Assembly (NCBI RefSeq): GCF_044704955.1 | Contig: NC_091980.1 | Coordinates: 86,180,001 to 86,244,000 of the forward strand | DNA: 64,000 bases | Source: Pristiophorus japonicus | Taxonomy: Eukaryota | Direction: 5' to 3' | Shown: positions 38,764 through 64,000 of the stretch, piece after piece | Layout: every line of letters starts with the position of its first letter | Position numbering within the stretch: the first letter of the stretch is position 1 | Translations under genes and position numbers: made by a program | The notes under the pieces: model-generated | Told to the model about the DNA's origin: nothing | The model's input: only the letters and a program-made list of their open reading frames with translations | Databases searched by the model: none

Positions 38764-39196
38764 TGAAGTAGGACAAGCCATCCTTCAGCAATTAAAGGGT
38801 TAACATTGCACCTTACATACTACGGACTTCCACTTAATTAATTCTTAGAAATATAATGAGGACTCACACACACCAGTTCAGAGTGACAAACAACACATGA
38901 CCCGCATCACAGCCAAAAAACAATGGATGTGATCAGACATGATTACACTTAAATTGATTACACTTAAAAACTGCTGAATGTTGTTAACCGTAACTGTCAC
39001 CCGCACCTGGTGTGTATTTTAAGTTGATCAAGTAAATGTATAAATATGTTGATAAAATGTTGTTCAGAGAGAGTGGGTGTTGGACTGAGTTGGGAACTCA
39101 GGCGTGAACTGCTCTCCCTTGCAAGTAAAAATAAACGGCTTTTAATTTGTACCAAATGGGCTTGTGTGTCAAGTGTTGCATAAACATTCCACTTCA
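38764..39196 (+). promoter_or_regulatory. Putative 5' LTR of the ERV
   Basis: Inverted ends TGAAGTAG...CCACTTCA, TATAAA at about 39039, AATAAA at about 39130, directly followed by the PBS. The second LTR is not in the window. Confidence 0.7.
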
Positions 39197-39199
39197 ATT

Positions 39200-39220
39200 T
39201 GGCATAGTCGGCAGGATTCG
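39200..39220 (+). promoter_or_regulatory. Primer-binding site for tRNA-Ser
   Basis: TGGCATAGTCGGCAGGATTCG is complementary to the vertebrate tRNA-Ser 3' end (CGAATCCTGCCGACTACGCCA) with one CpG-type mismatch. Confidence 0.9.
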
Positions 39221-40529
39221 CCCAGAGGAAAGACCACTGACTGTGACAGACCATCACTGAGTGAATATATTATTATACCACTCGCAAAATCCGATGCAAT
39301 CTGATGCGTTACGTGTCAGTCAACCGGGGAATTTGAGCAAGGTAAAAAGTCAGTGGGAAAAAAAAGTTGTTATAAGGTAAGAGAGTGGGACTATAGTTAT
39401 TATAGGCTAGTGAGTGGGCAAAAATTTGGCAGACGGAGTATTATGTGGGAAAATGTGAGATTATCCACTTTGGCAGAAATAATAGAAAAGCAAATTATAA
39501 TTTAAATGGAGAAAAATTGCTAAGTGCTGCAGTACAGAGGGACCGGGGGGGGTCTTTGTGCATGAAACACAAAATGTTAGTATGCAGGTACAGCAGGTAG
39601 TCAGGAAGGCAAACGGAATGTTGGCCTTTATTGCAAGGGGATAGAGTATAAAAGCATAGAAGTCCTGCTACAACTGTACAGGGTATTGGTGAGGCCACAT
39701 CCCCTGGAGTACTGCGTACAGTTTTGGTTTCCGTATTTAAGGAGGAATATACTTGCATTGATGGCTGTTCAGTGAAGGTTCACTAGGTTGATTCCGGAGA
39801 TGAGCGGGGTTGACTTATGAGGATAGTTTGAGTAGGTAGGGCCTATACACATTGGAGTTCTGAAGAATGTGAGGTGATCTTATTGAAACATAAGATAATG
39901 AGGGGGCTCGACAAGGTGGATGCAGAGAGGATATTTCTACTCATAGGGGAAACTAAAACGAGGGGACATGGGACTAGAGTTTCCTCATTTTTTGCATGCT
40001 TAACGCCCACTTAACATCCAATTTACTGCTGAAATGATGTATAGCATCCATATATCGGCCATTTAGCCACAAAATGGAAACTGACGGACATTTTTCGGAA
40101 ACTTATCGCCGAGCGTTACTTTCCCCATGTGCGTAAAGCTGGGAAAACATAATACCGCCCGCCCATTATTTTTAATCATAAATAGCACATTTGGCGAAAA
40201 TAATGCCCAGTATATCGCCCACCGTCACTTTCACCACTTCGCACACATATCGCCCACAATATAGCGCGCCCAAAAAACTGCCCAGAAAATGTGGAACTGT
40301 TCTGAACTAAAGCCAGCGGTGTGGCCGCTATTTCTAAAATCGCAGTTTGCTTCATTCAAAAGGCTGCTTCAACTTCGGGGGAGTTTAAATTGCTTCTGGA
40401 GTTCTTCTCAGGTGAAGTGACCATCTCAACAGACATATTTTCAGACTCTGGACTAGTGGGGGCTTAGTTTAGGTGTATTTTAGTGAGCAAATTATTGCTT
40501 CTGATCAATTGTTATTATACTTTCATTGC

Positions 40530-41912
40530 AATGGGACCAGCCATTTCTCATCCTGCATCGATTAATACGCAGATGCTGCAGAGTGCAAATGTGTGATGCA
40601 CATAATTGTGTCTCCAATTTATGCAAGAATGAGGAGGAGGGCCAGACCATACACACCCCGCAGGAACAGGGAAAAGAGGTGTCCGCCCACACCTGCCTTT
40701 GCAGACTGTGCTTCCACAAGGTGGTGATCAGTGAAATATGTGAGCTCATCAGGCCACATATGCAGCCTGCCATCAGGACATCAGTGTCAGTCGAGGTCAA
40801 GGTCACCTCGGCACTGTTTTTCTACGCATCCGATTCCTTTCGGGCCTCCGCGGTCGAGATTTTCCCTCTGTCTCACCATGCAACCCATCGCTGCATTAGA
40901 CAGGTCACGGAGGCCATGTACGCGAGAAGGATGGACTTCATTAGCTTCCCCATGATCACGGAGGCTCAGACTGACGCATTATACCCCATTCCTAAGTTTT
41001 CCAGGGTGCAGAGAGCTATACACTGCACTCACATTGCCATGTGGCCACCTTCTCAGGACCCGGAGCGTTTTCGTAAGAGAAAAGAATTTCACTCCCTGAA
41101 GGTCCAACTAGTTGTCGACCACAACCAGATCATCATGGCAGTGAATGCCAAATGTCCAGGCACCTTCGACGAGGCTCACATCCTGCGTGAGAGTGCTGTC
41201 TCTGACATCTTTAAGAGTCAGCCACAAGGACTGTTGTGTTTCTGTAAAGCATGCACTCCCATGTTCCGCCACCAGGGTGCACATCCCCTGAAGTCCCAAG
41301 GGATCCCAGCATCCCTTGGGAGCACTGTATATAAGCCGGCCCATAAAGCCTGTTCCTCACTCTGGAGTGTCTTAATAAAGACTGAGGTCACTGTTACTTT
41401 AACCTCCCTGTGTGCAATCTCATCTGTGTTAGGAACACAATAAGGACAATGCTGGATGCTTGGTGATAACCGATATAGCCTAGCCACCTGGCTGATGATT
41501 CCCCTGCGTGACACCCACACCGAGACCGAAAAGCGATACAACCAGAGCCACAGAGACACAGGCAATGTGGTCCAGAAAACAATAACTGTGCTTTAGCAGC
41601 ACTTTAGATATCTGGATCACTCAGGAGGGGAGCTACAACCCTGAACAAGTAGGTAAATTTGTGGTCATGTGCTCCATGCTGCACAACCTGGCTATCAGGA
41701 GGGGCCAAGAATTGCCAGAAGGGACTGATGCGCCACCTCAGGAAAGAGAGGAAGAGGACGACGAGGGGCTGGATGCTGACTTAGGGCCAGACAATCAGGC
41801 TGGCTATGCAACCATGCCCACGACCCCCTCCAGACTGCAGGAAAGGGCCCGTGGTGGCTACATAGCTGCAAGACTCTTATGTGAGGAGCTGATATCTGAA
41901 CGATTTGCCTAA
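40530..41912 (+). pseudogene. Harbinger DDE transposase (HARBI1-like), interrupted by a solo LTR
   Basis: VEVKVTSALFFYAS, AIHCTHIA (from GAIDCTH), RKEFHSLKVQLVVD, PGTFDEAHILRES, WMLGDNRY, CSMLHNLAIRRG, acidic tail. Confidence 0.88.
41232..41442 (+). mobile_element. Solo Gypsy LTR
   Basis: 211 bp, TGTTG...CAATA, 5-bp TSD AGGAC, TATA box and AATAAA; same family as the LTR at 56044-56254. Confidence 0.93.
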
Positions 41913-44900
41913 AAGAACATTGCTGTGAGTGACAACGCTGACACACTGCTGTGTGTGTGCAGCTCAGGCATCAATGGTGCCCATTACCTTGGTGCCAGTT
42001 AAAGTTTACGTTGATTGAAGTTAAATTTTATTTAATCCTTTCATGTTAAGGAATCACCAGTGTGTAACGGTCCAGCTATCTGAGACAATGCGCAACAAGG
42101 TTATGTTCAATAACAAAAAATTTATACCAACATTGGTCTGAAATCATAAGTATCACAGGCAAAAACACCCAAACTCCGCTCACACCCCACTTTTTCCACC
42201 ATTGACATCAATCAAATGTTCAACATGTCCAGCAACACAGAATACAAGGCAAAGCAGGAGTGTGGTGCCCAGCCCCCATACATTACAACAAATTGCATAC
42301 ACCCAGATGGAGATATAACACAGCCATCACCTACGGACATGCACCTCACTGTCCTTCCCCCTCCCCTTCTTCTCCCCACCTCTACCCCTTCTCCTCCTCA
42401 CTCCATGGCGCCTGGCCAAGGGGCTCCTCAGCCGGTGCCTCATTGTGGGGGAGATGAAGGCAGAGGCGGTGGTTGCACGGGTACTGGAGCAGGGGGTGCC
42501 GAGGGGACAACATTCCCTGATGCAGAAGCGGAACTTGGTCCTTGCTCTCATCTGTCGTTCGCAGTGGTGGTGCGGAACCTAAGGGTGGAGTGCCGTGCTC
42601 AGGGACCACTGGGAGGCCTGTGCCAGCAGTGTTCCTGGCTATCGCATCCAGGACCTCTGCCATCCGCGGAATGTACTCAGTCATGGTGGCCTGCTGTCGG
42701 GATATGCCCCCCAATGCTTCGATGAGCTGGTCACCAATGTCTACAGCCCTCTTGGACAACTGTACCATCTCTCCGCTCTCCTGCTGCGCTTGTGGACTAG
42801 ACCTGCCACGTCCACGAGGTCTCCGCAGGGTTGGCGCCATCCTGGGGACAAATGGGGTGCCCTGTGGCGAGGTGCTTGGGGCCGGTATCTCCAGAGTGGA
42901 GGCGGGAATGACCGGAGGACCACTAGATGGCCTTGGGGTGGAATGGCTTCTGGAGCATGGTGATGCAGGTTCCTCGAAGTCCGTGCAATCATCCATCAAG
43001 AACAGACCAAGTGGATTGACAGGTGAGAATCGGAGCTCCTCAGCACCAGATGTAGGATCCTCCGGAGAGTCGGGTCCCACGCCCCCACCTTCTGGCCTCT
43101 GTGGTCTTGCCTGGGGCCGCACTGAGCTGCAAAACACAAATGAGGTTATTATTAGAGGAGAAGAGGAGTGCTAGGGTCATAAGGTGAGTCCAGCGCTACA
43201 CACAGCATATGCACGACAAAGGCACCACCGCTATCAAAATCATCGCAGACATCACATTTCATGACCATCAACACATTTGCATTGCAATGATTTTCAATAG
43301 GCCAGCATTATCTCTAGGACAATTTTACAAATCATCTATCATATATTATTGCTCGGATATGAGTGGGTGTGCCATCTATTGATTTACATCACGCAATGGT
43401 GTAAACTTTACTCACGTTGCTTCACTTCAGGGTCTGCAGATGCTTCCATGGCTGTCCGGGTGTGCTTCCCCACAAGTGCGAGCACCCGCTCCTCCATCTC
43501 AGTGATGTCGCTGGGGACTGGTAGCCCCCCACCCATTCACCTCTGCACAGACTTCATCGGCGATAGCTTCTTCTGTAAAAGGTGACAGGATGACATGGCA
43601 TGAGATCATTGCATGATATCATTGCTAGGTACTGTCACAGAGACTGATACAACACATAACCTGTTATTTAACCCCTTGTAACCTTGTAACCTGCATCACA
43701 CATATCCATCACAGCACCCACCCAGGCATCGTGATGATGAAAGCCATAGCCAGATCCCATGTGTGGTGGCCAGGCATCGACCCAGAGAGGCACCGCTAAG
43801 TTTATGGTCCTGGCCATCCAAATCGTGGTCAAGGATACATGAGGACTATGCAGACCTATTCCTAGGCAAAATGTTTTTGGTTGTCGTGGATGCTTATTCA
43901 AAGAAGATTGAGTGTGCAATAATGTCTGGAAGCATGTCCACGGCCACCATTGAAAGTCTAAGAGCCATGTTTGCCATACACGGCCTGCCCGATGTCCTAG
44001 TCAGTAACAATGGACCGTGCTTCACAAGTGCCGAATTCAAAGAGTTCATGACCCGCAATGGGATCAAACATTTCACATCTGTGCCATTCAAGCCCACATC
44101 CAACGGCCAGGCAGAACGGGCAGTCCAGACCATCAAGCAAAGCTTGAAACGGGTGTCGGAAGGCTCCCTGCAGACCCAGTTGTCCCGAGTACTGCTCAGC
44201 TACCGCACCAGACCCCACACACTCACAGGGATCCCCCCATACGAGCTGCTCATGGAAAGGGCGCTTAAAACAAGGCTCTCTCTGGTCCACCCTGATCTAC
44301 ATGATCACGTGGAGGACAAGCTACATCAACTGAGTGTGTACCATGACCGCGCAAACTTGTCACGCGATATTGAAATCAATGATCCTGTGTTTGTGCTCAG
44401 TTATGGACATGGTCCCAATGGCTCGCTGGCACGGTCACAGCCAAAGAGGGGAGTAGGGTGTTTCAGGTCAAACTGACCAATGGACAAATGCACAGAAAAC
44501 ACTTGGACCAAATTAAACTGTGGTTCACCATCAGCTACACACAACCTGAAGAGGGCACCACCAACTTTGACCTTCCAACATACACAATTGGCAACTGACA
44601 TCACAGTTGACCACGAAACAGAACTCATCATCCCCAGCAGCCCGGCAAGGCCGGCTGCCCAACCGCCCAATGAAGCACTGACCAACCCAACCACACCAAC
44701 ATTTGTCCCGAGACGATCGACAAGGGAGCGCAACGCCCCAGATCATCTCATCTTGTAAATAAGTGTACTGTTGACTTCACGGGGGAATGATGTTATGTAT
44801 TTAACCCCTTGTAACCTTGTAACCTGCATCACACCTGTCCACCAGAGGGCCTCCCAGCATCCCTTGGGAGTAGAGTATATAAGCAGGCCACCCACAAGGT

Positions 44901-47083
44901 ACCTGCACTCTGGAACTACAATAAAGGAGCTAAGGTCACACTTGCTCATTACATACAGTACTCGGTCTGACCATTTATTTTGAGTATAACAATTGGCGAC
45001 GAGGTAACAAACCGCGCAAAAATGCAAAGAACATTCGGCATCCTGGAGAAATTCTCGGAGGGGGACGATTGGGAGGCCTTCGTGGAGAGACTCGACCAAT
45101 ACTTCGTAGCCAACGAGCTGGAAGGGGACGATATCGCCGACCAAACAAAGGGCGATCTTCCTAACTGTCTGTGGGGCCACTACCTATAACCTCATGAAGA
45201 ATCTCCTGGCCCCGGCTAAACCAACAGAGAAATCCTATGGAGAACTTTGTACGCTGGTCCGGGAGCACCTTATTCCTAATGGTGAGAAATCGGTGCTACA
45301 CATGTCAACGATCGGAGGGCCAGGAAGTGGCGAGCTACGTCGCCGAATTAAGGTGCCTTGCAGGACATTGTGAGTTTGAGGGATTCCTAGAACAAATGGT
45401 CAGAGACTTTTTTGTCCTGGGCATCGGACATGAGACAATCCTTTGCTAACTGTTGACTGTAGAAACTCCGAATCTGAGTAAAGCCATAACAATAGCCCAA
45501 GCATTTATGTCCACCAGCGTCAACACCAAGTAGATTTCGCAGAACAAAGATGTTTCGGCCAGTACTGTGCATAAAGTAACGTTGGTTTTGAGCAGAAATG
45601 TACAGGGCAGAAAGTACACGCCGGCTGCTGTGACCCGACCTCACTTGATCAAGAGTCCGGCATCATCTGTTAATACGAGGCAGTTAACACCCTGTTGGCG
45701 CTGCGGGGGTGATCATCGGCCCCATCAATGCTGCTTTAAGCACTATATGTGCAATGGCTGCAGATAAATGGGACACCTCCAACGAATGTGCAAGCAAGCT
45801 GCAAACCCTGCAAACCACCACGTTGCAGAGGAAGATCCACAGTGGATCAGACGGAATTGGAAACTTGTACGGAGGAGACTGAGGGTGTACGGGGTGCACA
45901 CGTTCACAACGAAATGCCCACCAATAATCTTGAAAGTTGAAGTGAACGGTATTCCAGTGTCTATGGAGCTGGACATGGGGCAAGGGGAAAAAATCACACA
46001 GGCCCAAGCTCAGCCCCCTTCACACGAAGCTAAGGACTTATACAAAAGGAACTAATCCCGGTAATTGGCAATGCTGAAGTCAAAGTCTCCTATGATGGAG
46101 CAGTACACGTACTCCCGCTGTGGATTGTGCCAGGGGATGGCCCCACATTATTTGGCAGAAGCTGGCTGGCGAAAATCCGCTGGAACTGGGACGACATCCA
46201 AGCGCTTTCGTCAGTTGACGATACCGCATGCACCCAGGTTCTAAGCAAGTTCCCATCATTATTCAAGTCAGGCATTGGAAGTTTCTTAGGGGCAAAAGTG
46301 CAGATCCATTTGGTTCCCGGTACATGCCCCATCTACTACAAGGCTCGGGCAGTACCATACATGATGCGTGAAAAACTGGAAATCAAGCTAGACAGGCTGC
46401 AACGTGAAGGCATCATCGCGCCGGTGGAGTTCAGCGACTGGGCCAGGCCGATTGTTCCGGGACTCAAGGAGGACGGCACGGTTAGAATTTTCGGTGACTA
46501 TAAAGTAACAATTTACCGTTTTTCACTGCAGGATCAGTACCTACTACCCAAGGCAGAGGACGTATTTGCAACCCTGGCTGGATTGACGTTGACCAAGCTG
46601 GATCTGACCTTGGCCTACATGACGCAGGAGCTGAAGGAGTCTTCGAAAGGCCTCACCTACATCAACACGCACAAAGGTCCGTTCGGAATTCGGTCGGCTG
46701 CAGCGATCTTCCAGCGAAATATGGAAAGCCTGCTAAAGTCGGTCCCTTGTACAGTGGTCTTCCAGGACGACATATATGTTACAGGTCGGGACATCATGGA
46801 GCACTTGAAGAACCTGGAGGAGGTTTTTAGTTGGTTGGATCACGTAGGGCTCAGGTTGAAACGCTTGAAGTGTGTTTCCCTGGCACAGGACGTCGAATTC
46901 TTAGGAAGGAGAATCGCCGCAGATGGCATCAGACCCACCAACGCCAAGACGGAGGCCATCAAGAACACGCCACGACCACGGAATGTGACGGAGCTGCGGT
47001 CGTTTCTGGGACTCCTTAACTACTTTGGTAATTTCCTACCTGGGTTAAGCACCCTGCTAGAACCCCTACATGTGTTACTGCGC

Positions 47084-47256
47084 GTGGTCGGTGAGATGAG
47101 TGTCCGGGTCGGAGGCCTATAAATGCCGCATGAGGCAGCGGGTGTTCGTGGTCGGTGAGGCGAGAGTCCGGGTCGGAGGCCAATAAAGGCAGCGAGAGGC
47201 AGCGGGTGTTCGTTGTCGGTGAGGCGAGAGTCCGGGTCGGAGGCCTATAAAGGCCA
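47084..47256 (+). repeat. About 2.7 x 64-bp tandem monomers at the LINE 5' end
   Basis: GTGGTCGGTGAG...CCGGGTCGGAGGCCTATAAA units start at 47084, 47148 and 47212. Confidence 0.85.
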
Positions 47257-50200
47257 ACTGGTGCAGCTGCAGGGAGAAGGCAAAAAAGAAGTAGAAAGAA
47301 AGCGAAAGATGACGTCACAGCCAAGGGGGTAAGTGATTGGTTGGTGATTGATAAGTAGTTTTTCGTTCTCTTTTCTTTATCAGTAAGTAACCTTTAGCAT
47401 TGTTGTTGCCAAATTAAGTTTATCTAAGGGTAAGTCATGGCAGGACAGCTCGGACACATGTTATGCTCCTTCTGTGCTATGTGGGAACTCAAGGACGCTT
47501 CCGGTGTCCCTGACGACCACATGTGCGGGAGGTGTATCCACCTGCAGATCCTGACAGACCGCATTGCGGCACTGGAGCTGATGGGTGGATTCACTCTGGA
47601 GCATGCACGATGCTGAGAATGACATAAATAGCACATTTAGCGAGTTGGTCTTACCGCAGGTAAAGGGTACACAGCCAGGTAGGGATTGGGTGAACAAAAG
47701 AAAGAGCAGTGCAAGGAAGGTAGTGCAGGGGTCCCCTGCCGTCATCCCCCTGCAAAACAGATACAGCGCTTTGGGTACTGTTGAGCGAGATGACTCATCA
47801 GGGAAGGGCAGCAGCAGCCAAGTTCATGGCACCGTGGGTGGCTCGGCAGCACAGGAGGGCAGGAAAAAGAGTGGGACAGTTATAGTGATAGGGGATTTGA
47901 TTGCAAGGGGAATAGATAGGCATTTCTGTGGCTGCAACCGAGACTCCAGGATGGTATGTTGCCTCCCTTGTGCAAAGATCAAGGGTGTCTCGGAGCGGGT
48001 GCAGGACATTCTGAAAAGGGAGGGTGAACAGCCAGTTGTCGTGGTGCACATAGCTACCAACAATACAGGTAAAAAATGGGATGAGGTCCTACGAGACGAA
48101 TTTAGGGAGCTAGGAGCTAAATTAAAAAGTAGGACCTCAAAAGTAGTTATCACAGGATTGCAACCAGTGCTACTTGCAAATCAGAATAGGAATCGCAGGA
48201 TAGCTCAGATGAATACGTAGCTTGAGGAGTGGTGCAGAAGGGAGGGATTCAAATTCCTGGGGCATTGGAACCGGTTCTGGGGGAGGTGGGACCAGTACAA
48301 ACCGGACGGTCTGCACCTGGGTAGGACCGGAACCAATGTCCTGGGGGGAGTGTTTGCTAGTGCTGTTGGGGAGGATTTAAACTAATATGGCAGGGGGATG
48401 GGAACCAATGCAGGGAGGCAGAGGGAAATAAAAGGGAGACAGAGGCAAAAGATAGAAAGGAGAATAGTAAAAGTGGAGGGCAGGGAATCCCAAGGCAAAA
48501 AACAAAAAGGGCCACATTACAGCAAAATTCTAAAGGGGCAAAGTGTGTTAAAAAGACAAGCCTGAAGGCTCTGTGCCTCAATGCGAGGAGTATTTGGAAT
48601 AAGGTGGACGAATTAATGGCGCAGATAGCAGTTAATGGATATGATGTAATTGGCATCACAGAGACATGGCTCCAGGGTGACCAAGGCTGGGAACTCAACA
48701 TCCAGGGGTATTCAACATTTAGGAAGGATAGACAGAGAGGAAAAGGAGGTGGGGTGGTGTTGCTGGTTAAAGAGGAAGTTAATGTAATAGTAAGGAAGGA
48801 CCTTGGCTTGGATGATGTGGAATCGGTATGGGTGGAGCTGCGGAATACCAAAGGGCAGAAAATGCTGGTGGGAATTGTGTGCAGACCACTAAACAGTAGT
48901 AGTGAGGTTGGGGACAGCATCACACAAGAAATAAGGGATGTGTACAATAAAGGTACAGCAGTTATCATGGGTGACTTTAATTTAAATATAGATTGGGCTA
49001 AACAAACTGGTAAACTGGTAGCAATGCGGTAGAGGAGGATTTCCTGGAGTGCATTAGGGATGGTTTTCTTGACCATTATGTCGAGGAACCAACTCGCGAG
49101 CTGGCCATCCTAGACTGGGTGATGTATAATGAGAAGGGACTAATTAGCAATCTTGTTGTGCGAGGCCCCTTGGGGAAGAGTGACAAAAATATGGTAGAAT
49201 TCTTTATTAAGATGGAGAGTGACACAGTAAATTTAGAAACTAGAGTCCTAAACTTAAGGAAAGCTAACTTCGACGGCATGAGGCGTGAATAAGCCAGAAT
49301 AGACTGGCAAATGATACTTAAAGAGTTGACGGTGGATAGGCAATGGCAAACATTTATAGATCACATGGATGAACTTCAACAGTTGTACATCCCTGTCTGG
49401 AGTTAAAAATAAAACAGTGAAGGTGGCTCAACCATGGCTAACAAGGGAAATTAAGGATAGTGTTAGATCCAAGGAAGAGGCATATAAATTGGCCAGAAAA
49501 AATGGAAACCTGAGGACTGGGAGAAATTTAGAATTCAGCAGAGGAGGAAAAAGGGTTTAATTAGGAGGGAGAAAATAGAGTACGAGAGGAAGCTTGCCGG
49601 GAACATAAAAACTGACTGCAAAAGTTTCTATAGATATGTGAAGAGAAAAAGATTAGTGAAGACAAACGTAGGTCCCTTGCAGTCAGACTCAGGTGAATTA
49701 ATAATGGGGAACAAAGAAATGGCAGACCAATTGAACAAATTTTATTCTGTCTTCACGAAGCAAGACACAAATGACCTTCCGGATATACTAGAGGACCGAG
49801 GGTCTAGTGAGAAGGAGGAACTGAAGGATATCCTTATTAGGCAGGAAATTGTGTTGGGGAAATTGATGGGATTGAAGGCCAACAAATCCCCAGGGCCTGA
49901 TTGTCTGCATCCCAGAGTACTTAAGGGGGTGGCCCTAGAAATAGTGGATGCATTGGAGATCATTTTCCAACAGTCTATCGACTCTGGATCAGTTCCTATG
50001 GACTGGAGGGCAGCTAATGTAACAGCACTTTTTAAAAAAGGAGGGAAAAAAGAAAACGGGAAATTATAGACCGGTTAGCCTGACATCAGTAGGGGGGAAA
50101 ATGTTGGAATCAATCATTAAGGATGAAAGAGCAGCGCATTTGGAAAGCAGTGACAGGATCGGTCCAAGTCAGCATGGATTTGTGAAAGGGAAATCATGCT

Positions 50201-51460
50201 TGACAAATCTTCTGGAATTTTTTGAGGATGTAACTAGTAGAGTGGACAAGGGAGAACCAGTGGATGTGGTGTATTTGGACTTTCAAAAGGCCTTTGACAA
50301 GGTCCCACATAAGAGATTGGTGTGCAAAATCAAAGCACATGGTATTGGGGGTAATGTACTGGCATGGAGAAAATTGGTTGGCAGACAGGAAGCAGAGAGT
50401 CGGGATTAACAGGTCCTTTTCGAAATGGGAGGCAGTGACTAGTGGAGTGCCGCAGGGTTCAGTGCTAGGACCCCAGCTATTTACAATATATATTAATGAT
50501 TTGGATGAAGGAATTGAGTGTAATATCTCCAAATTTGCAGATGACACTAAACTGGGTGGCGGTGTGAGCTGTGAGGAGGATGCTAAGAGGCTGCAGGGTG
50601 ACTTGGACAGGTTAGCTAAGTGGGCAAATGCATGGCAGATGCAGTATAATGTGGATAAATGTGAGGTTATCCACTTTGGTGGCAAAAACACGAAGGCAGA
50701 ATATTATCTGAATGGTGGCAGATTAGGAAAAGGGGAGGTGCAACGAGACCTGGGTGTCATGGTTCATCGGTCATTGAAAGTTGGCATGCAGGTACAGCAG
50801 GCAGTGAAGATGGCAAATGGCATTTGGCCTTCATAGCTAGGGGATTTTAGTAGGAGCAGGGAGGTCGTACTGCAATTGTACAGGGCCTTGGTGAGGCCTC
50901 ACCTGGAATTTTGTGTTCAGTTTTGGTCTCCCAATCTGAGGAAGGATGTTCTTGTTATTGAGGGAGTGCAGCGAAGGTTCACCAGACTGATTCCCGGGAT
51001 GGCTGGACTGACATACGAGGAGAGACTGGATCAACTGGCCTTTATACACTGGAGTTTAGAAGGATGAGAGGGGATCTCATAGAAACATATAAGATTCTGA
51101 CGGGATGGGACAGGTTCGATGCGGGAAGAATGTTCCCGATGTTGGGGAAGTCCAGAACCAGGGGACACAGTCTTAGGATAAGGGGTAAGCCATTTAGGAC
51201 TGAGATGAGGAGAAACTTCTTCACTCAGAGAGTTGTTAACCTGTGGAATTCCCTGCCGCAAAGAGTCGTTGATGCTAGTTCATTGGATATATTCAAGAGG
51301 GAGTTAGATATGGCCCTTACGGCTAAAGGGATCAAGGGGTATGCAGAGAAAGCGGGAAAGGGGTACTGAGGAGAATGATCAGCCATGATCATATTGAATG
51401 GTGGTGCAGGCTCGAAGGGCCGAATGGCCTACTCCTGCACCTATTTTCTATGTTTCTATG
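47084..51460 (+). mobile_element. Full-length CR1/HER1 LINE inserted in Gypsy 3 pol
   Basis: 5' monomers; ORF1 from 47437 (CxxC...CxxC, VIGD...VHIATNN...DGLHL SGNH esterase); ORF2 EN-RT to 51369 with frameshifts; HER1 tail. Confidence 0.93.
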
Positions 51461-54400
51461 AGACGACTGGGTATGGGGGAACTCACAAGTGGATGCCTTT
51501 AAGAAAGCCAGAAATTTACTGTGTTCTAACAAACTGCCTGTCCTGTATAACCCATGTAAACGACTAGTATTAGTTTGCGATGCGTCGTCATATGGGGTCG
51601 TGTGTGTGTTACAACAGGCTAATGAATTGGGAATTTTGCAACCAGTTGCATTATGCATTCAGGAGTTTGTCCAAGGCCGAAAGGGCCGACAGCATGGTTG
51701 AAAAAGAGGCTCTGGCATGCGTTTATGGGGTAAAAAAAATGCACCAGTACTTTTTTGGTCTCAAGTTCGAGCTTGAAACAGACCACAAGCTATTCTCGGA
51801 GAGCAAAGGGATCAATACCAATGCCTCTGCCCGCCTCCAAAGATGGGCGCTCACGCTGTCAGCATACAACTATGTAATTTGCCACAGACCGGGCACAGAG
51901 AACTGCGCAGATGCTCTCAGTCGGCTACCATTGCCTTCTATAGGGGTGTAAATGGCACAGCCAGCGGACTTGCTTATGGTCATGGAGGCATTTGAGAATG
52001 AGAAATCCCGCCATACGGCCCGCCAGATCAGGACCTGGATCAGCCAGGATCCTTTACTGTCCCTGGTAAAAAAACTATGTCCTCCATGGGAGCTGGTCCA
52101 GAGTCCCAGTGGAGATGCAGGAAGCGATTAAGCCATTCCACAGACGCAAAGATGAGCTGTCCCTGCAGGCCGGCTGTCTCTTGTGGGGCAATCATATGGT
52201 CTTGCCCAAGAAAGGCAGAGACACATTTATTGAGGAACTACACAGCATCCACCCAGGCATCCTGATGATGAAAGCCATAGCCAGATTCCACGTGTGGTGG
52301 CCAGGCATCAACTCAGATTTAGAGTCATGAGTACGTCAGTGCAACGCTTGCTCTCAGTTGAGCAATGCACCCAGAGAGGCACCGCTAAGTTTAGGGTCCT
52401 GGCCATCCAAAACGTGGTCAAGGATCCATGTAGACTATGCAGGCCCATTCCGAGGCAAAATGTTTTTGGTTGTCGTGGATGCTTACTCAAAGTGGATTGA
52501 GTGTGCAATAATGTCTGGAAGCACGTCCACAGCCACCATTGAAAGTCTAAGAGCCATGTTTGCCACGCACGGCCTGCCCGATATCCTAGTCAGCGACAAT
52601 GGACCGTGCTTCACAAGTGCCGAATTCAAAGAGTTCATGACCCGCTACGGGATCAAACAAGTCATAACTGCGCTGTTCAAGCCCACATCCAACAGCCAGG
52701 CAGAACGGGCAGTCCAGACCATCAAGCAAAGCTTGAAACGTGTGTCGGAAGGCTCCCTGCAGATCCAGTTGTCCCGAGTACTACTCAGCTACCACACCAG
52801 ACCCCACACACTCACAGGGATTCCCCCAGCTGAGCTGCTCATGAAAAGAGCGCTTAAAACAAGGCTCTCTCTGGTCCACCCTGATCTACATGATCACGTA
52901 GAGGACAAGCGGCATCAACAGAGTGTGTACCATGACCGCGTAAACTTGTCACGCGATATTGAAATCAATGATCCTGTGTTTGTGCTCAGTTATGGACATG
53001 GTCCCAAATGGTTCGCTGGCACGGTCACAGGCAAAGAGGGGAGTAGGGTGTTTCAGGTCAAACCGACCAATGGACAACTGCACAGAAAACACTTGGACCA
53101 AATTAAACTGCGGTTCACCAACAGCTACGCTTAACCTGAAGAGGGCACCACCAACTTTGATCTTCCAACACACACGCAATTAGCAACTGACATCACAGTT
53201 GACCACGAAACAGAACTCATCATCCCCAGCCGCCCGGCAAGGCCGGCTGTCCAACAGCCCAATGAAGAACTGACCAACCAAACCACACCAACATTTGTAC
53301 TGAGACGATCGACAAGGAAGCGCAAAGCCCCAGATCGTCTCATCTTGTAAATAACTGTATTGTTGACTTCACAGGGAAGTGATGTTATGTATTTAACCCC
53401 ATGTAACCTTGTAACCTGCATCACACCTATCCACCAGAGGGCCTACCTGTTGGAGTCCTAAGGGATCCCAGCATCCCTTGGGAGTAGAATATATAAGCAG
53501 GCCACCCACGAGGTACCTGCACTCTGGAACTACAATAAAGGAGCTAATGTCACACTTGCTCATTACACACAGTACTCGGTCTGACCATTTATTATGAGTG
53601 TAACATAACCGACAGATGTAATCATGATTATTATGATAATTATCACTCTTTACCTAAAGACGTGTACCGTGACCTCAGGCTTTGAGTAAAACATTTCCGG
53701 TAAAAGTGAAAGACCTCACATCTGCTGATAGTCACTCATGACTGTTACAAATCAAATTATATAAATACATAAATACATGTAAATAAATGTAATACTCTTG
53801 CGGATCCCACAAGGTCGTTCCATCGTTTGCGGCACTGGTTGCCCTCACGCACATCGTAGGTCACCGACAAGACCACCTCTGCTATCTTGGTCCATATCTT
53901 CTGGTCAGCCTTTGGGGTGGGCTTCCCACGCCCTCCCTGTGTCAAATCACCCCAGCGTATCTCGACCTCCTGCAGGAGGGAGGCATATGCCTTGTCGGAG
54001 AACCTCCTCACTTGTTTGCGCCCTCTAATGTGCTCCTCTCCCACCTCACTGCGCTCAGCTGCATCAGTCTCCACAGCGTGCTGTGATGTCTCCTCCTCTC
54101 CCTCCATTATAGGCCAAATTCGGGCAAATATGTGGCTGGTAACAGCTAATTTTTGTTTCCCTATTTGCTGTAAAGCTCTAAACTCTCCCTCCTTCCTCCC
54201 AAAGCAGCCACACCACACCCACACACGCCTTCACTCCCTCTCAGCTCCCTCTCTCTCTCTGTCTCCTCTTCTGCATATGTCATGATGCACCTTGACCTCC
54301 TGAATTGCGGGAATCGAGCGTTGCCATGCCGCTGTTAAGGACAGCGACATTTTACGGCAAAAGGTCAATGAGATTTAATGCTACCGCCCATTTCATATCG

Positions 54401-54856
54401 CTCACGGTAACGCTCAATTTCAAAAATGGAGACTAGCTGCTTTGAGAATGGGCAACAAGCCAGCGATCTGAAAACCCATTTTTACTGCCTACACCGGAAA
54501 CAACGCACATTTTTGGGCGATAAGCACAAAAGTGTAAAATCTAGCCCATTGTCTGAGGATAAGAGGCCGCCCATTTAAAACTGAGATGAGGAGAAATTTC
54601 TTCTCTCAAAGGGTTGTAAATCTGTGGAATTCTCTGCCCCAGAGAACTGTGGAGGTTGGGTCATTGAATATATTTAAGGCAGAGATAGACAGATTTTTGA
54701 GCGATAAGGGAGTAAAAGGTTATGGGGAGCGGGCAGGGAAGTGGAGCTGAGTCAATGTTCAGATCAGCCATGATTTAATTAAATGGCGGAGCAGGCTCAA
54801 GGGGCCAAATGGCATACACCTGCTCCTATTTCTTATGTTCTTATGTTCTTATTATT

Positions 54857-55681
54857 AGGTAAGACATAGTGGGACTATAGTTGTTATAAGGTAAGACGTA
54901 GTAGGACTATAGTTGTTATAAGGTAAGACGTAGTAGGACTATAGTTGTTATCAGGTAAGACATAGTGGGACTATAGTTGTTATAAGGTAAGACGTAGTAG
55001 GACTATGGTTGTTATAAGGTAAGACGTAGTAGGACTATGGTTGTTATAAGGTAAGACGTAGTAGGACTATAGTTGTTATAAGGTAAGATATAGTGGGACT
55101 ATAGTTGTTATAAGGTAAGACGTAGTAGGACTATAGTTGTTATAAGGTAAGACATAGTGGGACTATAGTTGTTATAAGGTAAGACGTAGTAGGACTATAG
55201 TTGTTATAAGGTAAGACGTAGTAGGACTATAGTTGTTATAAGGTAAGACGTAGTAGGACTATAGTTGTTATAAGGTAAGACGTAGTAGGACTATGGTTGT
55301 TATAAGGTAAGACGTAGTAGGACTATAGTTGTTATAAGGTAAGACGTAGTACGACTATGGTTGTTATAAGGTAAGACGTAGTAGGACTATAGTTGTTATA
55401 AGGTAAGACGTAGTAGGACTATGGTTGTTATAAGGTAAGACGTAGTAGGACTATAGTTGTTATAAGGTAAGACGTAGCAGGACTATGGTTGTTATAAGGT
55501 AAGACGTAGTGGGACTATAGTTGTTATAAGGTAAGACGTAGTAGGACTATGGTTGTTATAAGGTAAGACGTAGTAGGACTATAGTTGTTATAAGGTAAGA
55601 TGTAGTAGGACTATGGTTGTTATAAGGTAAGACGTAGTGGGACTATAGTTGTTATAAGGTAAGACGTAGTAGGACTATGGT
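54857..55681 (+). repeat. Tandem array of about 26 x 32-bp units in the ERV leader
   Basis: AGGTAAGAC(G/A)TAGT(A/G)GGACTAT(A/G)GTTGTTATA with exact 32-bp period and no spacers. Degenerate copies also at 39339-39404. Confidence 0.97.
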
Positions 55682-56043
55682 GAACTCCGGGAAATGATTG
55701 GTCACTGACCAAATTTTTTGCAGATAAACATAAGAAATTAATTCTCAAAATGAAAGAAGATGGGTGGGACCCATCAGTCGAACCTGTCAAACAAAGGGTT
55801 TGGTGCGAAAAGCAAACTAAAGAGGAAATAAAGCTGGTGTTCTAATTATCTGGTAGTGTCTGAGATTTAGTGAAAGATGAAACCTAAATTAGAAGAGTTG
55901 ACCAGTCTAAGACAGACAAAGAGACAGGCGACTATGTTTGGACCGATTGACGATCCAACAGATAAAGGACAGGGTGAGTTAGGGGACGGCCCACCGCCCT
56001 ATGCCACAGCGAGCGCCCTAGACTTAGAAGGAGAAGTGATTCC
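55677..56043 (+). pseudogene. gag: ERV gag N-terminal remnant with PPPY late domain
   Basis: MVNSGK*...KHKKLILKMKEDGWDP...WCEKQ...ELGDGPPPYATASAL; truncated by Gypsy 4. Confidence 0.65.
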
Positions 56044-59000: not shown

Positions 59001-59053
59001 ATGGGTCGTGCCTCTGGGACCAAGTGGATCCGCACCTTCACCCCAGAAAAGTC
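56044..59053 (-). mobile_element. Gypsy 4: 3' half only (RT-RNaseH-IN, PPT, 3' LTR 56044-56254)
   Basis: SPIVPVLK, FQDD, CDASSYGVG, TDHKPL, VSDNG, GQAER on the minus strand; 5' half missing. Confidence 0.92.
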
Positions 59054-59594
59054 ATAAAAACAATGGCCACTGAATGAAGCCATAGGCCCCCCATGAGGAC
59101 TGACAATGATCCCAAAATTCACGTCACTGTGTTGTTAGGGGGCCGGCAGTGTGACATGTTAGATGACACGGGAGCGTCAGTCTTGATAACAGATATACCT
59201 CTGCCAACTATTAGGCGATCACTATTGATACAGGGAGTAGGTGAAACCACGACCCGGGTACTACAAAGTGAAGTGATGGTCCCAGAGGTGGCAGGGATAT
59301 TAATCCCAGCCCAGTTCTAGGTGTGTAATAATCCTGAAGGAACTATTTTAGGAATCAACCTATTAGACCAACTGAGGGCACTAATAGACCCCAGGGAAAG
59401 AAAGATAACGTGGAAAGATTGTTCGGGTGGAGAAAGGATGACCTTGTGGGGCTGTAACAAGCTAGAGAATCATGCTCACGTTGGCAGCATACAGTCCTTC
59501 ACCTGGGACTGGTCTAAAGAAAGGAGATGGGAATGATTTGCTCATATCTCGGGGAGGTATGGGCAACATCAAAACAGGACTGTGGACTCGTGGA

Positions 59595-59695
59595 CCCTTG
59601 TGCGTGTTGATGTAGGTGAGGTCCTTCGAAGACTCCTCCAGCTCCTGCGTCAAGTAGGCTGAAGTCAGATTGAGCTTGGTAAACGTCTTGCCTCC
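59595..59695 (-). mobile_element. 101-bp copy of Gypsy 4 RT sequence inside ERV pol
   Basis: Near-identical to 58653-58753. Confidence 0.85.
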
Positions 59696-62239
59696 AGAAC
59701 AAAAGGTGCATAAACCGTATCCCATATGACCCAAGGCCCGCGAGGTGGTTGCCCGGATCATCCGGGACCTGGTGGCCGACGGAGTACTAAGGGAAACGGT
59801 GGTCACAACTAACTCGCCAGTGTGGCCCATCAAGAAGCCAGACAGATCAGACCGACTGACTATTGACTACACTGCGCTGAATAAGATCACGTCACGGGAA
59901 CACCCCATAGTAGCCGGTCCAACGACCATTTTTAATGGTCTAAAACCCGAACATAAAATCTTTACCGTATTAGACATAGCCAATGGATTCTAGTTAGTAG
60001 CCCTTTCCCGAGAATCAGAAAATAAGTTTGCCTTCACCTTAGGAGAACAGCAGTACACGTGGACCAGGGTACCACAGCGATTCCATAACAGACCGGCCAT
60101 ATTCCACTGGACTGTGAGCCGATGTTGGAGAATGTAGACCTGACTCCCTGCAAGAGTACTGTCCTACAATATGTAGATGACTTATTGATAGCCTCCGAAA
60201 GCACAAAAGGACACACCGGGGCACTCGTAGAAGTCCCAGAGGTGCTCCGGAGATCCGGGTTTAAAGTGAACCCAAAGAAAGTCCTCATGTCCGCCCCGGT
60301 TCTAGGACTGCCCAACATGGAGCTACCATTCCATATTTACTGTGATTACCAGGGAAGTTTCTGTGGAGCCATGGTCACCTAAGCCCACGGTGACCGGCAA
60401 AGACCCGTCACCTACTATTCAGCCCAAGAGTCGTTGGTGGCGGTGGGACTGTCCAGATGTGTAGCAGCACTAAATTGCGCAACATGGGCAGTGAAAGTTA
60501 GTGCACCCGTAGTAATGACCAGAGATATCGTGTTACATATGAAACACATTCTAGTAGAAATGTTAAACACGGGAAAACTCCGAGCCGTCTCCAACGTCCG
60601 GAGGGCGAAATGGGAAGCCGTTCTGTTATCCCGGGATGACTCGGTAAAGATAGTGAGGGACACCGGTTAGAACTCAGCAGAAAGAATTCTGGCCACGGGG
60701 GAACCACATGGGTGCCATCCACTCGACTGGGAAGATACCCCGGGGAACATAGGTGAGGTACCCTTAGACGATCCCGATCTGGTGTTGTATGTAGACAGGT
60801 CCTGAAAATATATAGATGGAGTCCCCCATACCTGATGGGCTGTAGTAAATCAGAGCCTAGAGGCCATATTGAATGGAGCTTTAGAGGGAGGACTATTGGC
60901 ACAGGTGGCAGAATTGACCGCACTGACCGAAGCCCTCAAACAAGCCGAGGGAAAACGGGTCAATATCTATTTGGATAGCCGCTACGCCTTTGGCATGGTA
61001 CATGACTACATGACCGCCTGGGGAAGATGAGGGTTCGTCACCTCAGGGGGCGAGGCCATCAAGCAATGGAGCCGTATTTAGGCTGCTATTAGATGCTGCT
61101 AGTAAACCTGCCCAAGCGGCAGTGATAAAGGTGAAGGTTCACCAACAAATAGTGGATGAGATACAAAAAGGAAATGAGGCAGTGGACCACGCAGCCCGAC
61201 GGGCCGCAGAGTCCAAAGCCCTCGACCCAGAACCCATAAGCACCCTGGCACTTGGGGAAGACGGTTATAGATGTAACGAAACTACAGGAAGATACAAGTG
61301 AAAAAGAGGAGTGGAAGGACACGGGCAGGGCCCGTGGTTCAGACTCCATATGGAGGCGAGATGGTTGCAAGATTGCACCTGAATGCATTTGACATATGTT
61401 GATGGAACTGCATCACGAGATCAATCACCACGGATGTAATGCTGTAACTATTAGTATTGATCGGGATTGGTGGTGGCCGGCCATGGCCAATGGGTAGCCA
61501 AATACTGTCAACAATGTATTACATGCGCCCAACACAACCCTGGAAAGGCTGTAAAGATCTGGATGGCCCATCAGCCCCGCCCTCAGGGACCATGGGAAAA
61601 TCTGCAAATTGCTTTTACAGGGCCACTACCAAACTCTCGAGGAAGGAAATATTTTCTAGTAATAATAGATCAATTCACACGGTGGGTGGAAGCATTCACA
61701 GTTCGCAACTGTACTGCGACCACAGTCATGCCAATACTGGCTGAGGAGGTGATTCCGCGTTGAGGAATACCCGCACAGATTGACTCAGACCAGGGAACTC
61801 ATTTCACCGGGAAAGTAATAAAGGTAGTCTGTAAGACTCTGGGCATTAAACAAAAGTTCCACATTCTGAGCCAGCCCTAAAGTTTAGGGATGGTAGAGAG
61901 AATGAATCGGACTCTTAAAACTTTACTGGCCAAGGCCATACAGGAAACCAGGCAATCCTGACTGGAATTGTTACCCACAATATTAATTAGATTGCACGCA
62001 ACCCCAAATTGGACTACAGGGCTAACACCCTACGAGCTGATGACAGGACGTGCCATGAAAATACCTGAGGGTATAATTTCGGGAGGACCGGATCTGGGAC
62101 TATTATGGGACCGAATCAGACAGTACGTAATGGAATTAAGCAAATAATTAAAAGATATGAGACAGGAAGTCAGGGAGCAAGAGGAATGTAGGGATCATGA
62201 TGAGGACTTTGAATCCCCGGCAGACGTGCAGCAAGTCGG

Positions 62240-62476
62240 AGAACAGGCACACCAACATCAGTCCCTGGGAGGACAGGCGCACCAACATCAGTGTCCTCGA
62301 CCAGGCTAACATCCCCAGTATTGAAGCACTGACCACACTCGATCAGCTTCGCGGGGCAGGCCACATAATTCGCATGTCAGACACGAGACTCCCTAAGCAA
62401 ATGCCTTATGCAGAGCTCCTTCATGGTCAACAAGCCAAAGGAGGACAGCGGAAACGTTATAAGGACACCCTCAAAG
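62240..62476 (+). mobile_element. Internal RTE fragment (no tail) inside the ERV integrase C-terminus
   Basis: PWEDRRTNISVLDQANIPSIEAL...RMSDTRLPKQ...RKRYKDTLK. Confidence 0.85.
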
Positions 62477-62778
62477 TTCTTTGATGTTCAGCCATCAAAG
62501 AACTCACTTTGGGAGTGAAAGCAGGTCTTCCTCGTTTCCGAGGGACTGCCTGTAATGATGAGGAGAAAAGGTAATGGCCAAGGGACTACCAGGACGAACA
62601 GGGTTCACTCCTCGGTGGATCGGGCCATACCAAATCTTGAAAGTGATGAAACCTGCGCATGCGTGGATATGGGAGGATAAGGGCATTGGAAACATTGGTC
62701 CCAGCTGAAACCAACTGATCTGTAGTGGACAGCCTCAGGGCATACACCCTTTGTCTTTACAAGATGGCGTAATAGAAA

Positions 62779-64000
62779 CTCTTTTGGAGTTTATCTGCAA
62801 AAACAAAAGACATTAAACCGTGCCACCCTACCTGGGTGACACACCAGACATTTACAAGGCCCTTTTTTTTCCTTTTTTTTTGTGTTTTTCTTTTTTTTTT
62901 TGGTTTTTTTTTGGGCACTAAAATCACAATTTTTCCCCAGTGCCCCCTATAAAAGGGAAGGGGGACACTAAAAGCACCGACAATTAAAAAATTAAACTTT
63001 AAAACGTAAAATCAAATTAAAATTTGGTTGCCGGGCGTGATGATGCACTCCAGTCCCTCCGGTGCCCACCTCTCGCGGAAGGCCGCGAGCGTACCGGTGG
63101 ACACCGCGTGCTCCATCTCCAAGGACACCCTGGACCGGATGTAAGAGCGGAAGAGAGACAGGCAGTCAGGTTGAACGACCACCTCGACCGCCCACTGCCT
63201 GGACCGGCTAATGGCACCCTTGGCCGTGCCCAGGAGCAGTCCTACGAGGAGGCCTTCGGACCTACCTGCTCCCCTCCGCACAGAGTGCCCAAAGATCAGG
63301 AGAGTGGGACTGAAGTGCAGCCAGAATTTCAGGAGCAGCCCCTTCAAATAATGGAACAGGGGCTGCAACCTCGTGCACTCAATAAAAACATGGAACACGG
63401 ACTCCTCCAGACCGCAGAAATTGCAGGCGGCCTGGGAGTCCGTGAACCGGCTTAAAAATTTGTTGCACGGCACTGCTCCGTGCACCACCCTCCAGGCCAA
63501 GTCCCCGATGAATAGTGGGAGGACCCCTGCGTAGAGGGCCCTCCATCGGGGACCCCCGCCTCCTCCGGACGGCAAGATGGTACGCCATGGCGTGTCCGGA
63601 CGGTAGGCGAGGATGGCAAAGTTGAGAGTGTGCAGGAGCAGCCCGTACAAGAAACCCCTCCGCGCGGAACTGAAAGGCACGGAGGGGATTTCCCCGAGGC
63701 GGCTCAAGTTGTGAGGCGCCGGCCCCCGAGGGAGGTTCCGGGGTTTGGCGCCGATGAGGAATTCCGTCCGGACGGGGGTCAGTTCGGACGGGATCTCCCC
63801 ACGTGCTTGAGCCTCCTCGATGCACCTAACGGAGTCAGGGCCCAGAGCTGTTTTTAGCGACTCGATGGCATCGGCTGCGTGGCGGACGTTGGCAGAATTT
63901 AGGCGCCGCGCCAGCGTGTCTGGCGCCATCCAGCCCGCTCCTCCGCCATCGAGCAGGTCCCTGACCCTGGTCACCTCACCTGCCACAGCCCTCTCTTCCG
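62779..64000 (-). mobile_element. Tx1-clade (L1 group) non-LTR retrotransposon, 3' end
   Basis: GC-rich ORF2 C-terminus plus A-rich 3' UTR; continues beyond the window. Confidence 0.8.
63012..64000 (-). CDS. Tx1-like ORF2 C-terminus with RT-associated zinc finger (partial)
   Basis: Open for more than 324 aa: GDLAWRVVHGAVPCN...CNFCGLEESVFHVFIECTRL...LLLGTAKGAI...FRERW. Confidence 0.8.
   Translation of the reverse strand, partial: EERAVAGEVTRVRDLLDGGGAGWMAPDTLARRLNSANVRHAADAIESLKTALGPDSVRCIEEAQARGEIPSELTPVRTEFLIGAKPRNLPRGPAPHNLSRLGEIPSVPFSSARRGFLYGLLLHTLNFAILAYRPDTPWRTILPSGGGGGPRWRALYAGVLPLFIGDLAWRVVHGAVPCNKFLSRFTDSQAACNFCGLEESVFHVFIECTRLQPLFHYLKGLLLKFWLHFSPTLLIFGHSVRRGAGRSEGLLVGLLLGTAKGAISRSRQWAVEVVVQPDCLSLFRSYIRSRVSLEMEHAVSTGTLAAFRERWAPEGLECIITPGNQILI

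What the first reader, a model, noticed from the sequence alone, without database searches (positions are those of the whole stretch)
38764..62778. Hidden endogenous retrovirus spread over 24 kb
Seen: removing the nested elements joins LTR (38764-39196), tRNA-Ser PBS (39200), leader repeats (39339-39404 and 54857-55681), gag with PPPY (55677-56043) and pro-pol (59075-62725), all on + and in retroviral order. Known: a tether domain followed by a second RNase H, a PPPY late domain and a GPY-type IN tail mark true retroviruses rather than Gypsy elements. The ORF track shows only scraps, so automatic annotation would probably miss it.
Basis: partly seen in the sequence, partly recalled or inferred. 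Interest (0 to 1): 0.75.

Follow-up and report, generated by a model that had tools for sequence, protein, structure and literature searches.

The report
Fossil shark retrovirus split by insertions
A dead retrovirus lies in pieces across 24 kb of a genome that is likely a shark's, because other mobile elements jumped into it; the pieces likely come from one provirus of an already catalogued fish-turtle-shark lineage, so it is an ordinary viral fossil in an unusually cluttered state.

Summary
Confirmed in substance. An LTR (38764-39196), a tRNA-Ser primer site, a leader split by a CR1-type insert with a 7-bp target duplication, a gag stub with PPPY and a decayed pro-pol (protease, RT, tether, RNase H, integrase) lie on + in retroviral order. 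The gag-pol link crosses a deletion, so the window alone cannot show it. New evidence supports it: the gag stub matches only one of 298 proteins, a horn-shark Gag-RT model whose RT groups with this pol. The pol is closest to shark Pol proteins (59-72%) and resembles whale-shark Rh_ty_ERV4 of Xu et al. 2018, placed in the snakehead-related clade Huo by label order. Corrections: the insert in the integrase runs 62247-62561; about 92 RT codons and most of gag are deleted; Ser primer site, GPY/F and double RNase H are not exclusive to retroviruses. env, 3' LTR and target duplication lie outside the window and were not testable. Verdict: a new, defective member of a known lineage. Its oddest feature is a much younger 26-copy leader minisatellite that repeats a splice-donor-like motif.

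The parts
38764..39196 (+). 5' LTR, 433 bp
   Evidence: TG..CA with 6-bp inverted ends, TATAAA 39039, AATAAA 39130, primer site 3 nt behind; no partner LTR in the window
39200..39217 (+). primer-binding site, tRNA-Ser
   Evidence: 17 of 18 to the tRNA-Ser 3' end printed in PMC3299991; single match in window
39218..39403 (+). 5' part of the leader with two worn copies of the leader unit; splice-donor-like motifs at 39340 and 39375
   Evidence: donor function inferred from the consensus
39404..54848 (+). insert, level 1: 5'-truncated CR1-type LINE (family name recalled), itself split
   Evidence: 7-bp duplication; both halves (39404-39969, 54559-54852) are adjacent in another copy at 35842-34982
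39970..54558 (.). insert, level 2: Harbinger-type DNA transposon (ends approximate)
   Evidence: Pfam DDE_Tnp_4 E 4e-8 at 40505-41230; short imperfect terminal repeats; no clear duplication
41232..41442 (+). insert, level 3: solo Gypsy LTR
   Evidence: 92% to 56044-56254, flanking duplication
43662..53605 (+). insert, level 3: tandem Gypsy (partial unit plus full unit)
   Evidence: RVT_1 and rve hits; flanking duplication; LTR pair K2P 0.041
47083..51460 (+). insert, level 4: long CR1-type LINE inside the Gypsy pol
   Evidence: Exo_endo_phos E 3e-9; Gypsy homology resumes on both sides; no duplication found
54852..55678 (+). leader minisatellite, 26 x 32 bp, each unit with a splice-donor-like motif
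   Evidence: TRF 25.8 copies, 94% matches; 3 private changes in 768 nt of 24 full units
55684..56043 (+). gag stub: matrix-like start and PPPY late-domain motif (55991-56002); stops and a frameshift; capsid and nucleocapsid absent
   Evidence: 40% over 53 aa to the N-terminus of P0189; only hit among 298 proteins; 0 of 500 shuffles reach the score
56044..59052 (-). insert: Gypsy element cut by a deletion that also took the rest of gag
   Evidence: RT, RNase H, rve hits; other copies run on past 59052 (table 7); no duplication
59054..59594 (+). short remnant before an in-frame stop (59075), protease, start of RT
   Evidence: RVP E 0.0013; 32-35% to P0011 and P0013
59595..59695 (-). 101-bp Gypsy-derived patch
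   Evidence: 96% to 58653-58753, K2P 0.041; no duplication
59696..62246 (+). RT (YVDD at 60170; about 92 codons missing near 60280), tether, RNase H, integrase zinc finger and core
62247..62561 (+). insert: 3' end of an RTE-type LINE (family name recalled)
   Evidence: 9-bp duplication with one mismatch; matches at 36580-36798, 528-607, 838-935; depth near 10^6
62562..62725 (+). integrase tail with GPY motif; pol stop at 62723
   Evidence: matches P0185 residues 906-957, E 3e-5; relatives carry MLVIN_C
   Evidence: zf-RVT E 2e-5, under its cut-off; high depth

Best explanation
This is a defective endogenous retrovirus, likely one provirus in a cartilaginous fish, likely of the fish-turtle-shark branch that holds whale-shark Rh_ty_ERV4 (snakehead-related clade Huo), broken up after integration by at least nine foreign insertions and two large deletions. 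Shown: LTR, Ser primer site, leader, gag stub and pro-pol in order on one strand; stops and frameshifts throughout; inserts nested four deep in the leader. Inferred for the ancestral virus, from how simple retroviruses work: transcription from the LTR, reverse transcription primed by tRNA-Ser, a splice donor in the leader, Gag budding through its PPPY late domain, Pol made by read-through of a stop before the protease, and probably an env behind pol. Inferred history: germ-line integration as one of roughly ten copies; neutral decay; a CR1-type LINE landed in the short leader repeat and then collected a Harbinger, Gypsy elements and a second LINE; a Gypsy landed in gag and one deletion took its 5' half with capsid and nucleocapsid; much later the leader unit on the 3' side of the LINE expanded as a minisatellite. 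The locus cannot make Gag or Pol today.
For: Domain order. Tether plus RNase H colinear with MLV RT. Closest proteins are a cluster with Mustelus asterias XP_078069418: 65% in the RT N-half, 60% in tether-RNase H, 72% in the integrase core. RT tree of 56 rows: outside Gypsy (99), outside the class I set (97) and apart from two loki-type rows (100); inside a 14-row set (95) with shark and minnow Pol. LTR-to-gag continuity by the 7-bp duplication and the shared unit. Gag-pol link: the stub hits only P0189 (Heterodontus francisci Gag-RT model) among 298 proteins, at least 12 of which carry Gag_p30 (E 3.7e-8; listings); score 118 against a shuffle maximum of 52 and a best other window tile of 48 of 700; P0189 is 47-50% identical to this pol and in the same RT subtree (89). 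Weak support: summed contig depth of the gag bin (171) is like 7 of 11 pol-only bins (135-306) in run X3, against 1.4-2.7 million for the Gypsy. 20 of 32 listed contig pieces are sister copies 10-15% different. Rh_ty_ERV4 shares 21 of 25 residues at the protease start and about 55% of the RT N-half, counted by eye; the nearest integrases come from cyprinids, an eel and a sea turtle, the same hosts that surround Rh_ty_ERV4 in S2 Fig.
Against: No sequence was seen that carries LTR, gag and pol together: no genome is held, no listed contig spans the stretch, and no related locus was found. P0189 is a predicted gene model and may be spliced. The remnant before the protease shows no match to the end of P0189 Gag (scores 15-18), so read-through is not shown. 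4 of 11 pol bins have depth 1176-1764, and the tool warns that depth is no copy number. Clade Huo is read from the order of labels in a figure whose branches I could not see; no named reference virus was in my trees. Best solved-structure hits disagree: foamy virus for RT N-half and integrase, MLV for tether-RNase H. env, PPT, 3' LTR and target duplication were not seen.
Confidence: 0.85

Rival explanations
1. Two different proviruses of the same broad lineage were brought together by the deletion at 59053: LTR, leader and gag from one, pol from the other.
For: The junction has no target duplication and the Gypsy has lost one end; the size of the deletion is unknown; no contig links gag to pol.
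Against: Same strand, right order and the same lineage for both halves; the family looks low in copies, so two neighbours by chance are unlikely; pol resumes just before the protease, as one deletion inside gag would leave it.
Confidence: 0.1
2. It is one element, but of an env-less, intracellular family that spread by retrotransposition, as ERV-L does (a rival on mechanism; compatible with the rest).
For: No env is seen in the window; Xu-type class III relatives include env-less ERV-L (PMC8278194).
Against: A non-LTR element takes over about 50 bp after the pol stop and the window ends inside it, so absence is not informative; PPPY and leader donor motifs fit budding and a spliced env (inference); a sister contig in run X5 runs on 227 letters past 62751, letters not shown.
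Confidence: 0.2
3. The LTR and primer site belong to a Gypsy (or other) LTR retrotransposon and merely lie upstream of the retroviral gag-pol.
For: The same Ser primer site precedes Gypsy-type pol in 10 of 11 retroelement loci among 29.
Against: The leader runs without a break from the primer site into the unit that continues, across a 7-bp duplication, into the array and straight into the retroviral matrix-like sequence; the window's Gypsy LTRs are about 200-220 bp and have another primer site.
Confidence: 0.04
4. The pol is a lokiretrovirus or a class I (epsilon-like) retrovirus.
For: Double RNase H fits both; tether-RNase H hit MLV best; the integrase tree holds it in a 30-row set with class I rows (96); relatives carry MLVIN_C.
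Against: Loki RTs have a CPFG motif; the nearest relatives have LPQG and the two loki-type rows form their own clade (100); the 22-row class I set (97) excludes the window's RT.
Confidence: 0.05

Closest known systems
Rh_ty_ERV4 (whale shark) and neighbours Ch_my_ERV5, Si_gr_ERV1, Cy_ca_ERV7, An_ro_ERV5, An_ja_ERV1, Le_oc_ERV2 of Xu et al. 2018 (PMC6001957), clade Huo
   Same: 21 of 25 residues at the protease start and about 55% of the RT N-half by eye; same host mix among the nearest integrases; P0186 and P0211, which read like An_ja_ERV1 and Le_oc_ERV2 by eye, are 48% identical to the RT N-half.
   Different: A different family at that distance. I saw only the cut heads of the published entries, so LTR, primer site, leader and gag could not be compared.
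Mustelus asterias XP_078069418 cluster (P0001, P0011, P0013) and Heterodontus francisci model P0189
   Same: Nearest Pol (59-72%) and the only Gag match.
   Different: Those Pol frames are open over 800-1050 residues; this copy is decayed. Annotated only as uncharacterized proteins.
Snakehead retrovirus and CmiERV lineage I (Han 2015, PMC4422223)
   Same: Same major clade by inference; SnRV shares the gag-pol read-through layout (PMC1224870); SnRV-related ERVs are known from a cartilaginous fish.
   Different: SnRV has one zinc finger, the related Gag P0189 has two CCHC motifs. No direct comparison was possible.
XtERV-S of Xenopus (PMC8278194)
   Same: Class III pol, tRNA-Ser primer, in-frame stop between gag and pol.
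   Different: YIDD, dUTPase, PSAP and no Cys-His box there; YVDD, PPPY and no dUTPase hit here.
Lokiretroviruses (PMC7947760)
   Same: Tether plus second RNase H; fish hosts.
   Different: RT motif and tree position differ.

Membership tests
Retroviridae (ERV) | LTR - PBS - gag - pro - RT - RNase H - IN order on one strand | tested here: met
Retroviridae (ERV) | Tether plus second RNase H | tested here: met
   RT_RNaseH and RNase_H hits in one frame; colinear with MLV RT 329-594
Retroviridae (ERV) | RT groups with retroviruses, not Ty3/Gypsy | tested here: met
   5 Gypsy rows split off with SH-aLRT 99; PDB E 2e-21 foamy, 3e-18 MLV, 5e-8 Ty3
Retroviridae (ERV) | Retroviral Gag (MA-CA-NC) | tested here: inconclusive
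   Only an N-terminal stub remains, with no Pfam hit; its relative P0189 resembles retroviral Gag clusters by features (0.92) and has two CCHC motifs
Retroviridae (ERV) | env, polypurine tract, 3' LTR, target-site duplication | not testable with these tools
   beyond the window end; no genome held
Clade Huo, Rh_ty_ERV4 branch (Xu et al. 2018) | Pol phylogeny with the published members | tested here: inconclusive
   similarity by eye and host mix agree; the published sequences were not in my trees, and the clade was read from label order
Class I (gamma/epsilon) | RT inside the gamma-epsilon clade | tested here: not met
   22-row class I set (97) excludes it; FastTree agrees; the integrase tree does not separate them
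Lokiretrovirus | RT clade and motif (CPFG) | tested here: not met
Spumaretrovirinae | Gag without zinc fingers; A9 protease | tested here: not met
   related Gag P0189 has two CCHC motifs where spumaviruses have none; protease hits RVP, not Spuma_A9PTase; tested on the relative for Gag. RT and integrase do score best on foamy structures
Ty3/Gypsy | Single RNase H and RT in the Gypsy clade | tested here: not met

The most novel reading that the evidence does not exclude
The locus ties a 5' anatomy (433-bp LTR, tRNA-Ser primer, a leader built of repeated splice-donor units, a matrix with no Pfam family, PPPY) to a deep retroviral branch known in print mainly from Pol. That branch has a foamy-scoring RT and integrase, an MLV-scoring RNase H and a two-knuckle Gag, has open Pol frames in other sharks, and may deserve genus rank between class I and spumaviruses. 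Its leader donor unit has also become a live minisatellite long after the provirus died.
Probability: 0.3. Interest if true: 0.5.

Novelty: new member of a known kind. Interest (0 to 1): 0.3.

Why it matters
As it stands it is one more decayed class III-type provirus in a host group where such elements are common. It has modest value as a record of the LTR, primer and leader of a little-described branch, as a four-level nest that orders CR1, Harbinger and Gypsy activity in time, and as a case that LTR-pair or ORF-based annotation would miss. It opens no long-standing question by itself.

Tried and rejected
No genome held. The search for related loci with P0013 found nothing in metagenome or viral contigs. 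A search for Gag-only relatives of P0189 residues 1-455 found none among 3664 candidates. AlphaFold of P0189 without an alignment gave mean pLDDT 35.7; discarded, no fold search run. Primer-site scans gave 29 loci: none with this lineage's pol, and window pieces matched them only at the primer site itself. No RNA holder listed. No tRNA gene and no Rfam hit in 38000-64000. No earlier findings in three look-ups. The exact contigs across 59023-59474 come from what may be the source sample and have 30 letters on the Gypsy side, one short of the tool's bar, so they are not counted as independent proof of the junction. Dating by the nested Gypsy LTR pair is rough: the unit is a tandem, and 0.041 gives about 90 Myr at Han's assumed 2.2e-10 per year but about 9 Myr at the mammalian rate. 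A 15-nt match between the gag stub and the downstream element was set aside as chance. Literature searches for this branch's anatomy and for a splice-donor leader minisatellite listed nothing that describes them; I read only the listings, and the library lacks most subscription journals.
Full report
What is there. 38764-39196 has LTR ends (TGAAGT...ACTTCA), a TATA box and a poly(A) signal, and no partner in the window. Three bases later stands an 18-nt site matching the tRNA-Ser 3' end in 17 of 18 letters (PMC3299991, one passage). The leader then shows two worn copies of a unit that returns 15.4 kb later as a 26-copy, 32-bp array. The DNA between is a CR1-type LINE with a 7-bp target duplication, whose two halves are adjacent in another copy in the window. 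It holds a Harbinger-type transposon, which holds a solo LTR and a tandem Gypsy, which holds a second LINE.

The array runs straight into a gag stub. Its first 53 residues are 40% identical to the N-terminus of P0189, a Heterodontus francisci gene model with Gag, RT and tether. It was the only hit among 298 fetched proteins (E 3.7e-8); 0 of 500 shuffles reached its score and the best other tile of the window scored 48 against 118. PPPY follows at 55991. A minus-strand Gypsy starts at 56044 and breaks off at 59052 with no second end and no duplication, so a deletion took its 5' half and the capsid-nucleocapsid part of gag.

pro-pol follows with protease, RT, tether, RNase H and integrase. It has 13 stops in 1002 codons read, several frameshifts, a 101-bp Gypsy patch, a gap of about 92 codons in RT and a LINE end at 62247-62561 with a 9-bp duplication. 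After the pol stop at 62723 a minus-strand non-LTR element fills the rest of the window, so env, the 3' LTR and the target duplication cannot be seen; no genome is held.

Do the pieces belong together? LTR to gag: yes, by direct continuity across one duplicated site. Gag to pol: likely. P0189 carries both the Gag that matches the stub and an RT-tether 47-50% identical to this pol, and lies in the same RT subtree. Contigs of four runs (at most two samples) laid on 55680-62850 gave similar low depth on the gag bin and on 7 of 11 pol-only bins, four orders below the Gypsy; 4 conserved bins were higher, and the tool warns that depth is no copy number. Of 32 listed pieces, 6 were exact, 20 were sisters 10-15% different and 6 were Gypsy. 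Pieces from the second sample stop matching at 59595 and start matching at 62561 while the contigs run on, which fits the patch and the LINE end being private to this copy. No piece links gag to pol, so two fused proviruses keep about 10%.

What it is. The nearest proteins are a shark Pol cluster with Mustelus asterias XP_078069418. In a quick IQ-TREE of the RT N-half (56 rows, no named reference virus) it lies outside Gypsy (99), outside class I (97) and apart from loki-type rows (100), in a set of 14 (95) with shark and minnow Pol. The integrase tree pairs it with P0013 (89) beside turtle, cyprinid and eel proteins (92) and does not separate the branch from class I. Xu et al. 2018 list whale-shark Rh_ty_ERV4, which shares 21 of 25 residues at the protease start and about 55% of the RT N-half by eye. 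In their S2 Fig its label stands among turtle, cyprinid and eel ERVs after snakehead retrovirus and before the foamy viruses; their text says clade Tu has no reptile members, which points to clade Huo. That placement is inferred, since branches were not visible.

How it worked. Inferred from simple retroviruses: LTR-driven transcription, tRNA-Ser priming, a leader splice donor, budding through PPPY, and Pol by read-through of the in-frame stop at 59075, as described for SnRV and XtERV-S. The last step is not shown here, because only a few codons remain before that stop and they do not match P0189. The copy is now inert as a coding unit. The nested Gypsy LTR pair differs by 0.041, which gives about 90 Myr at the rate Han assumed for sharks or about 9 Myr at a mammalian rate; the provirus is older than that insert. 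A measured shark rate is 7e-10 per generation (abstract).

None is exclusive. Double RNase H occurs in lokiretroviruses and Tat elements, GPY/F in errantiviruses, and the Ser primer site before Gypsy-type pol in 10 of 11 retroelement loci among 29 fetched; the eleventh was too weak to tell. The conclusion stands on the tree and the homologies.

Novelty. A new defective member of a known lineage, in a host group with many clade III ERVs. The one odd trait is the leader array, whose units each carry a donor-like motif and are far more uniform (0.4% private changes) than the age of the provirus allows. My searches for a description of it or of this branch's 5' anatomy listed none, which is weak evidence. 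Interest 0.3.

Papers and what I saw: PMC4422223 part 1 of 2; PMC6001957 passages, section 7, supplement passages with long lines cut, and S2 Fig labels; PMC4977317 parts 1-2 of 4; PMC10699275 passages; PMC7947760 parts 1-2 of 4 and passages of a supplement cut in storage; PMC11089739, PMC3299991, PMC8278194 and PMC1224870 passages; PMC10587355 abstract; PMC9040795 search listing only. The uncut supplements of Xu 2018 and Han 2015 may already hold the LTR and primer site of this branch.

Noticed in passing
window 54852-55678: Every 32-bp unit carries a splice-donor-like AG|GTAAG; only 3 private changes in 768 nt (0.4%), against 4% for the nested Gypsy LTR pair and 10-15% between provirus and sisters, so the array expanded or was homogenised long after the provirus decayed, and only on the 3' side of the LINE.
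   Followed up: partly
window 59595-59695: A 101-bp Gypsy RT patch without target duplication, 96% identical to 58653-58753 about 940 bp upstream and in the same orientation; looks like a templated repair patch. The donor cannot be fixed because the Gypsy family is very abundant.
   Followed up: partly
window 43662-53605: Gypsy in tandem form (partial LTR, integrase, LTR, full internal region, LTR) inside one target duplication; the two integrase-LTR stretches differ by 0.068.
   Followed up: partly
window 39404-54848: Inserts nested four deep within the leader: LINE, Harbinger, Gypsy, LINE.
   Followed up: yes
window 62750-62770: A pyrimidine-rich run followed by AG and ATG about 35 bp after the pol stop; could be an env splice acceptor or the end of the downstream element.
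   Followed up: no
window 29413-32874: A 1153-codon open frame that spans Gypsy-like and CR1-like sequence by self-comparison; not examined.
   Followed up: no
P0017, P0018: Relatives from a neighbouring branch in which protease and integrase lie close together with no RT hit: possibly RT-less non-autonomous elements.
   Followed up: no
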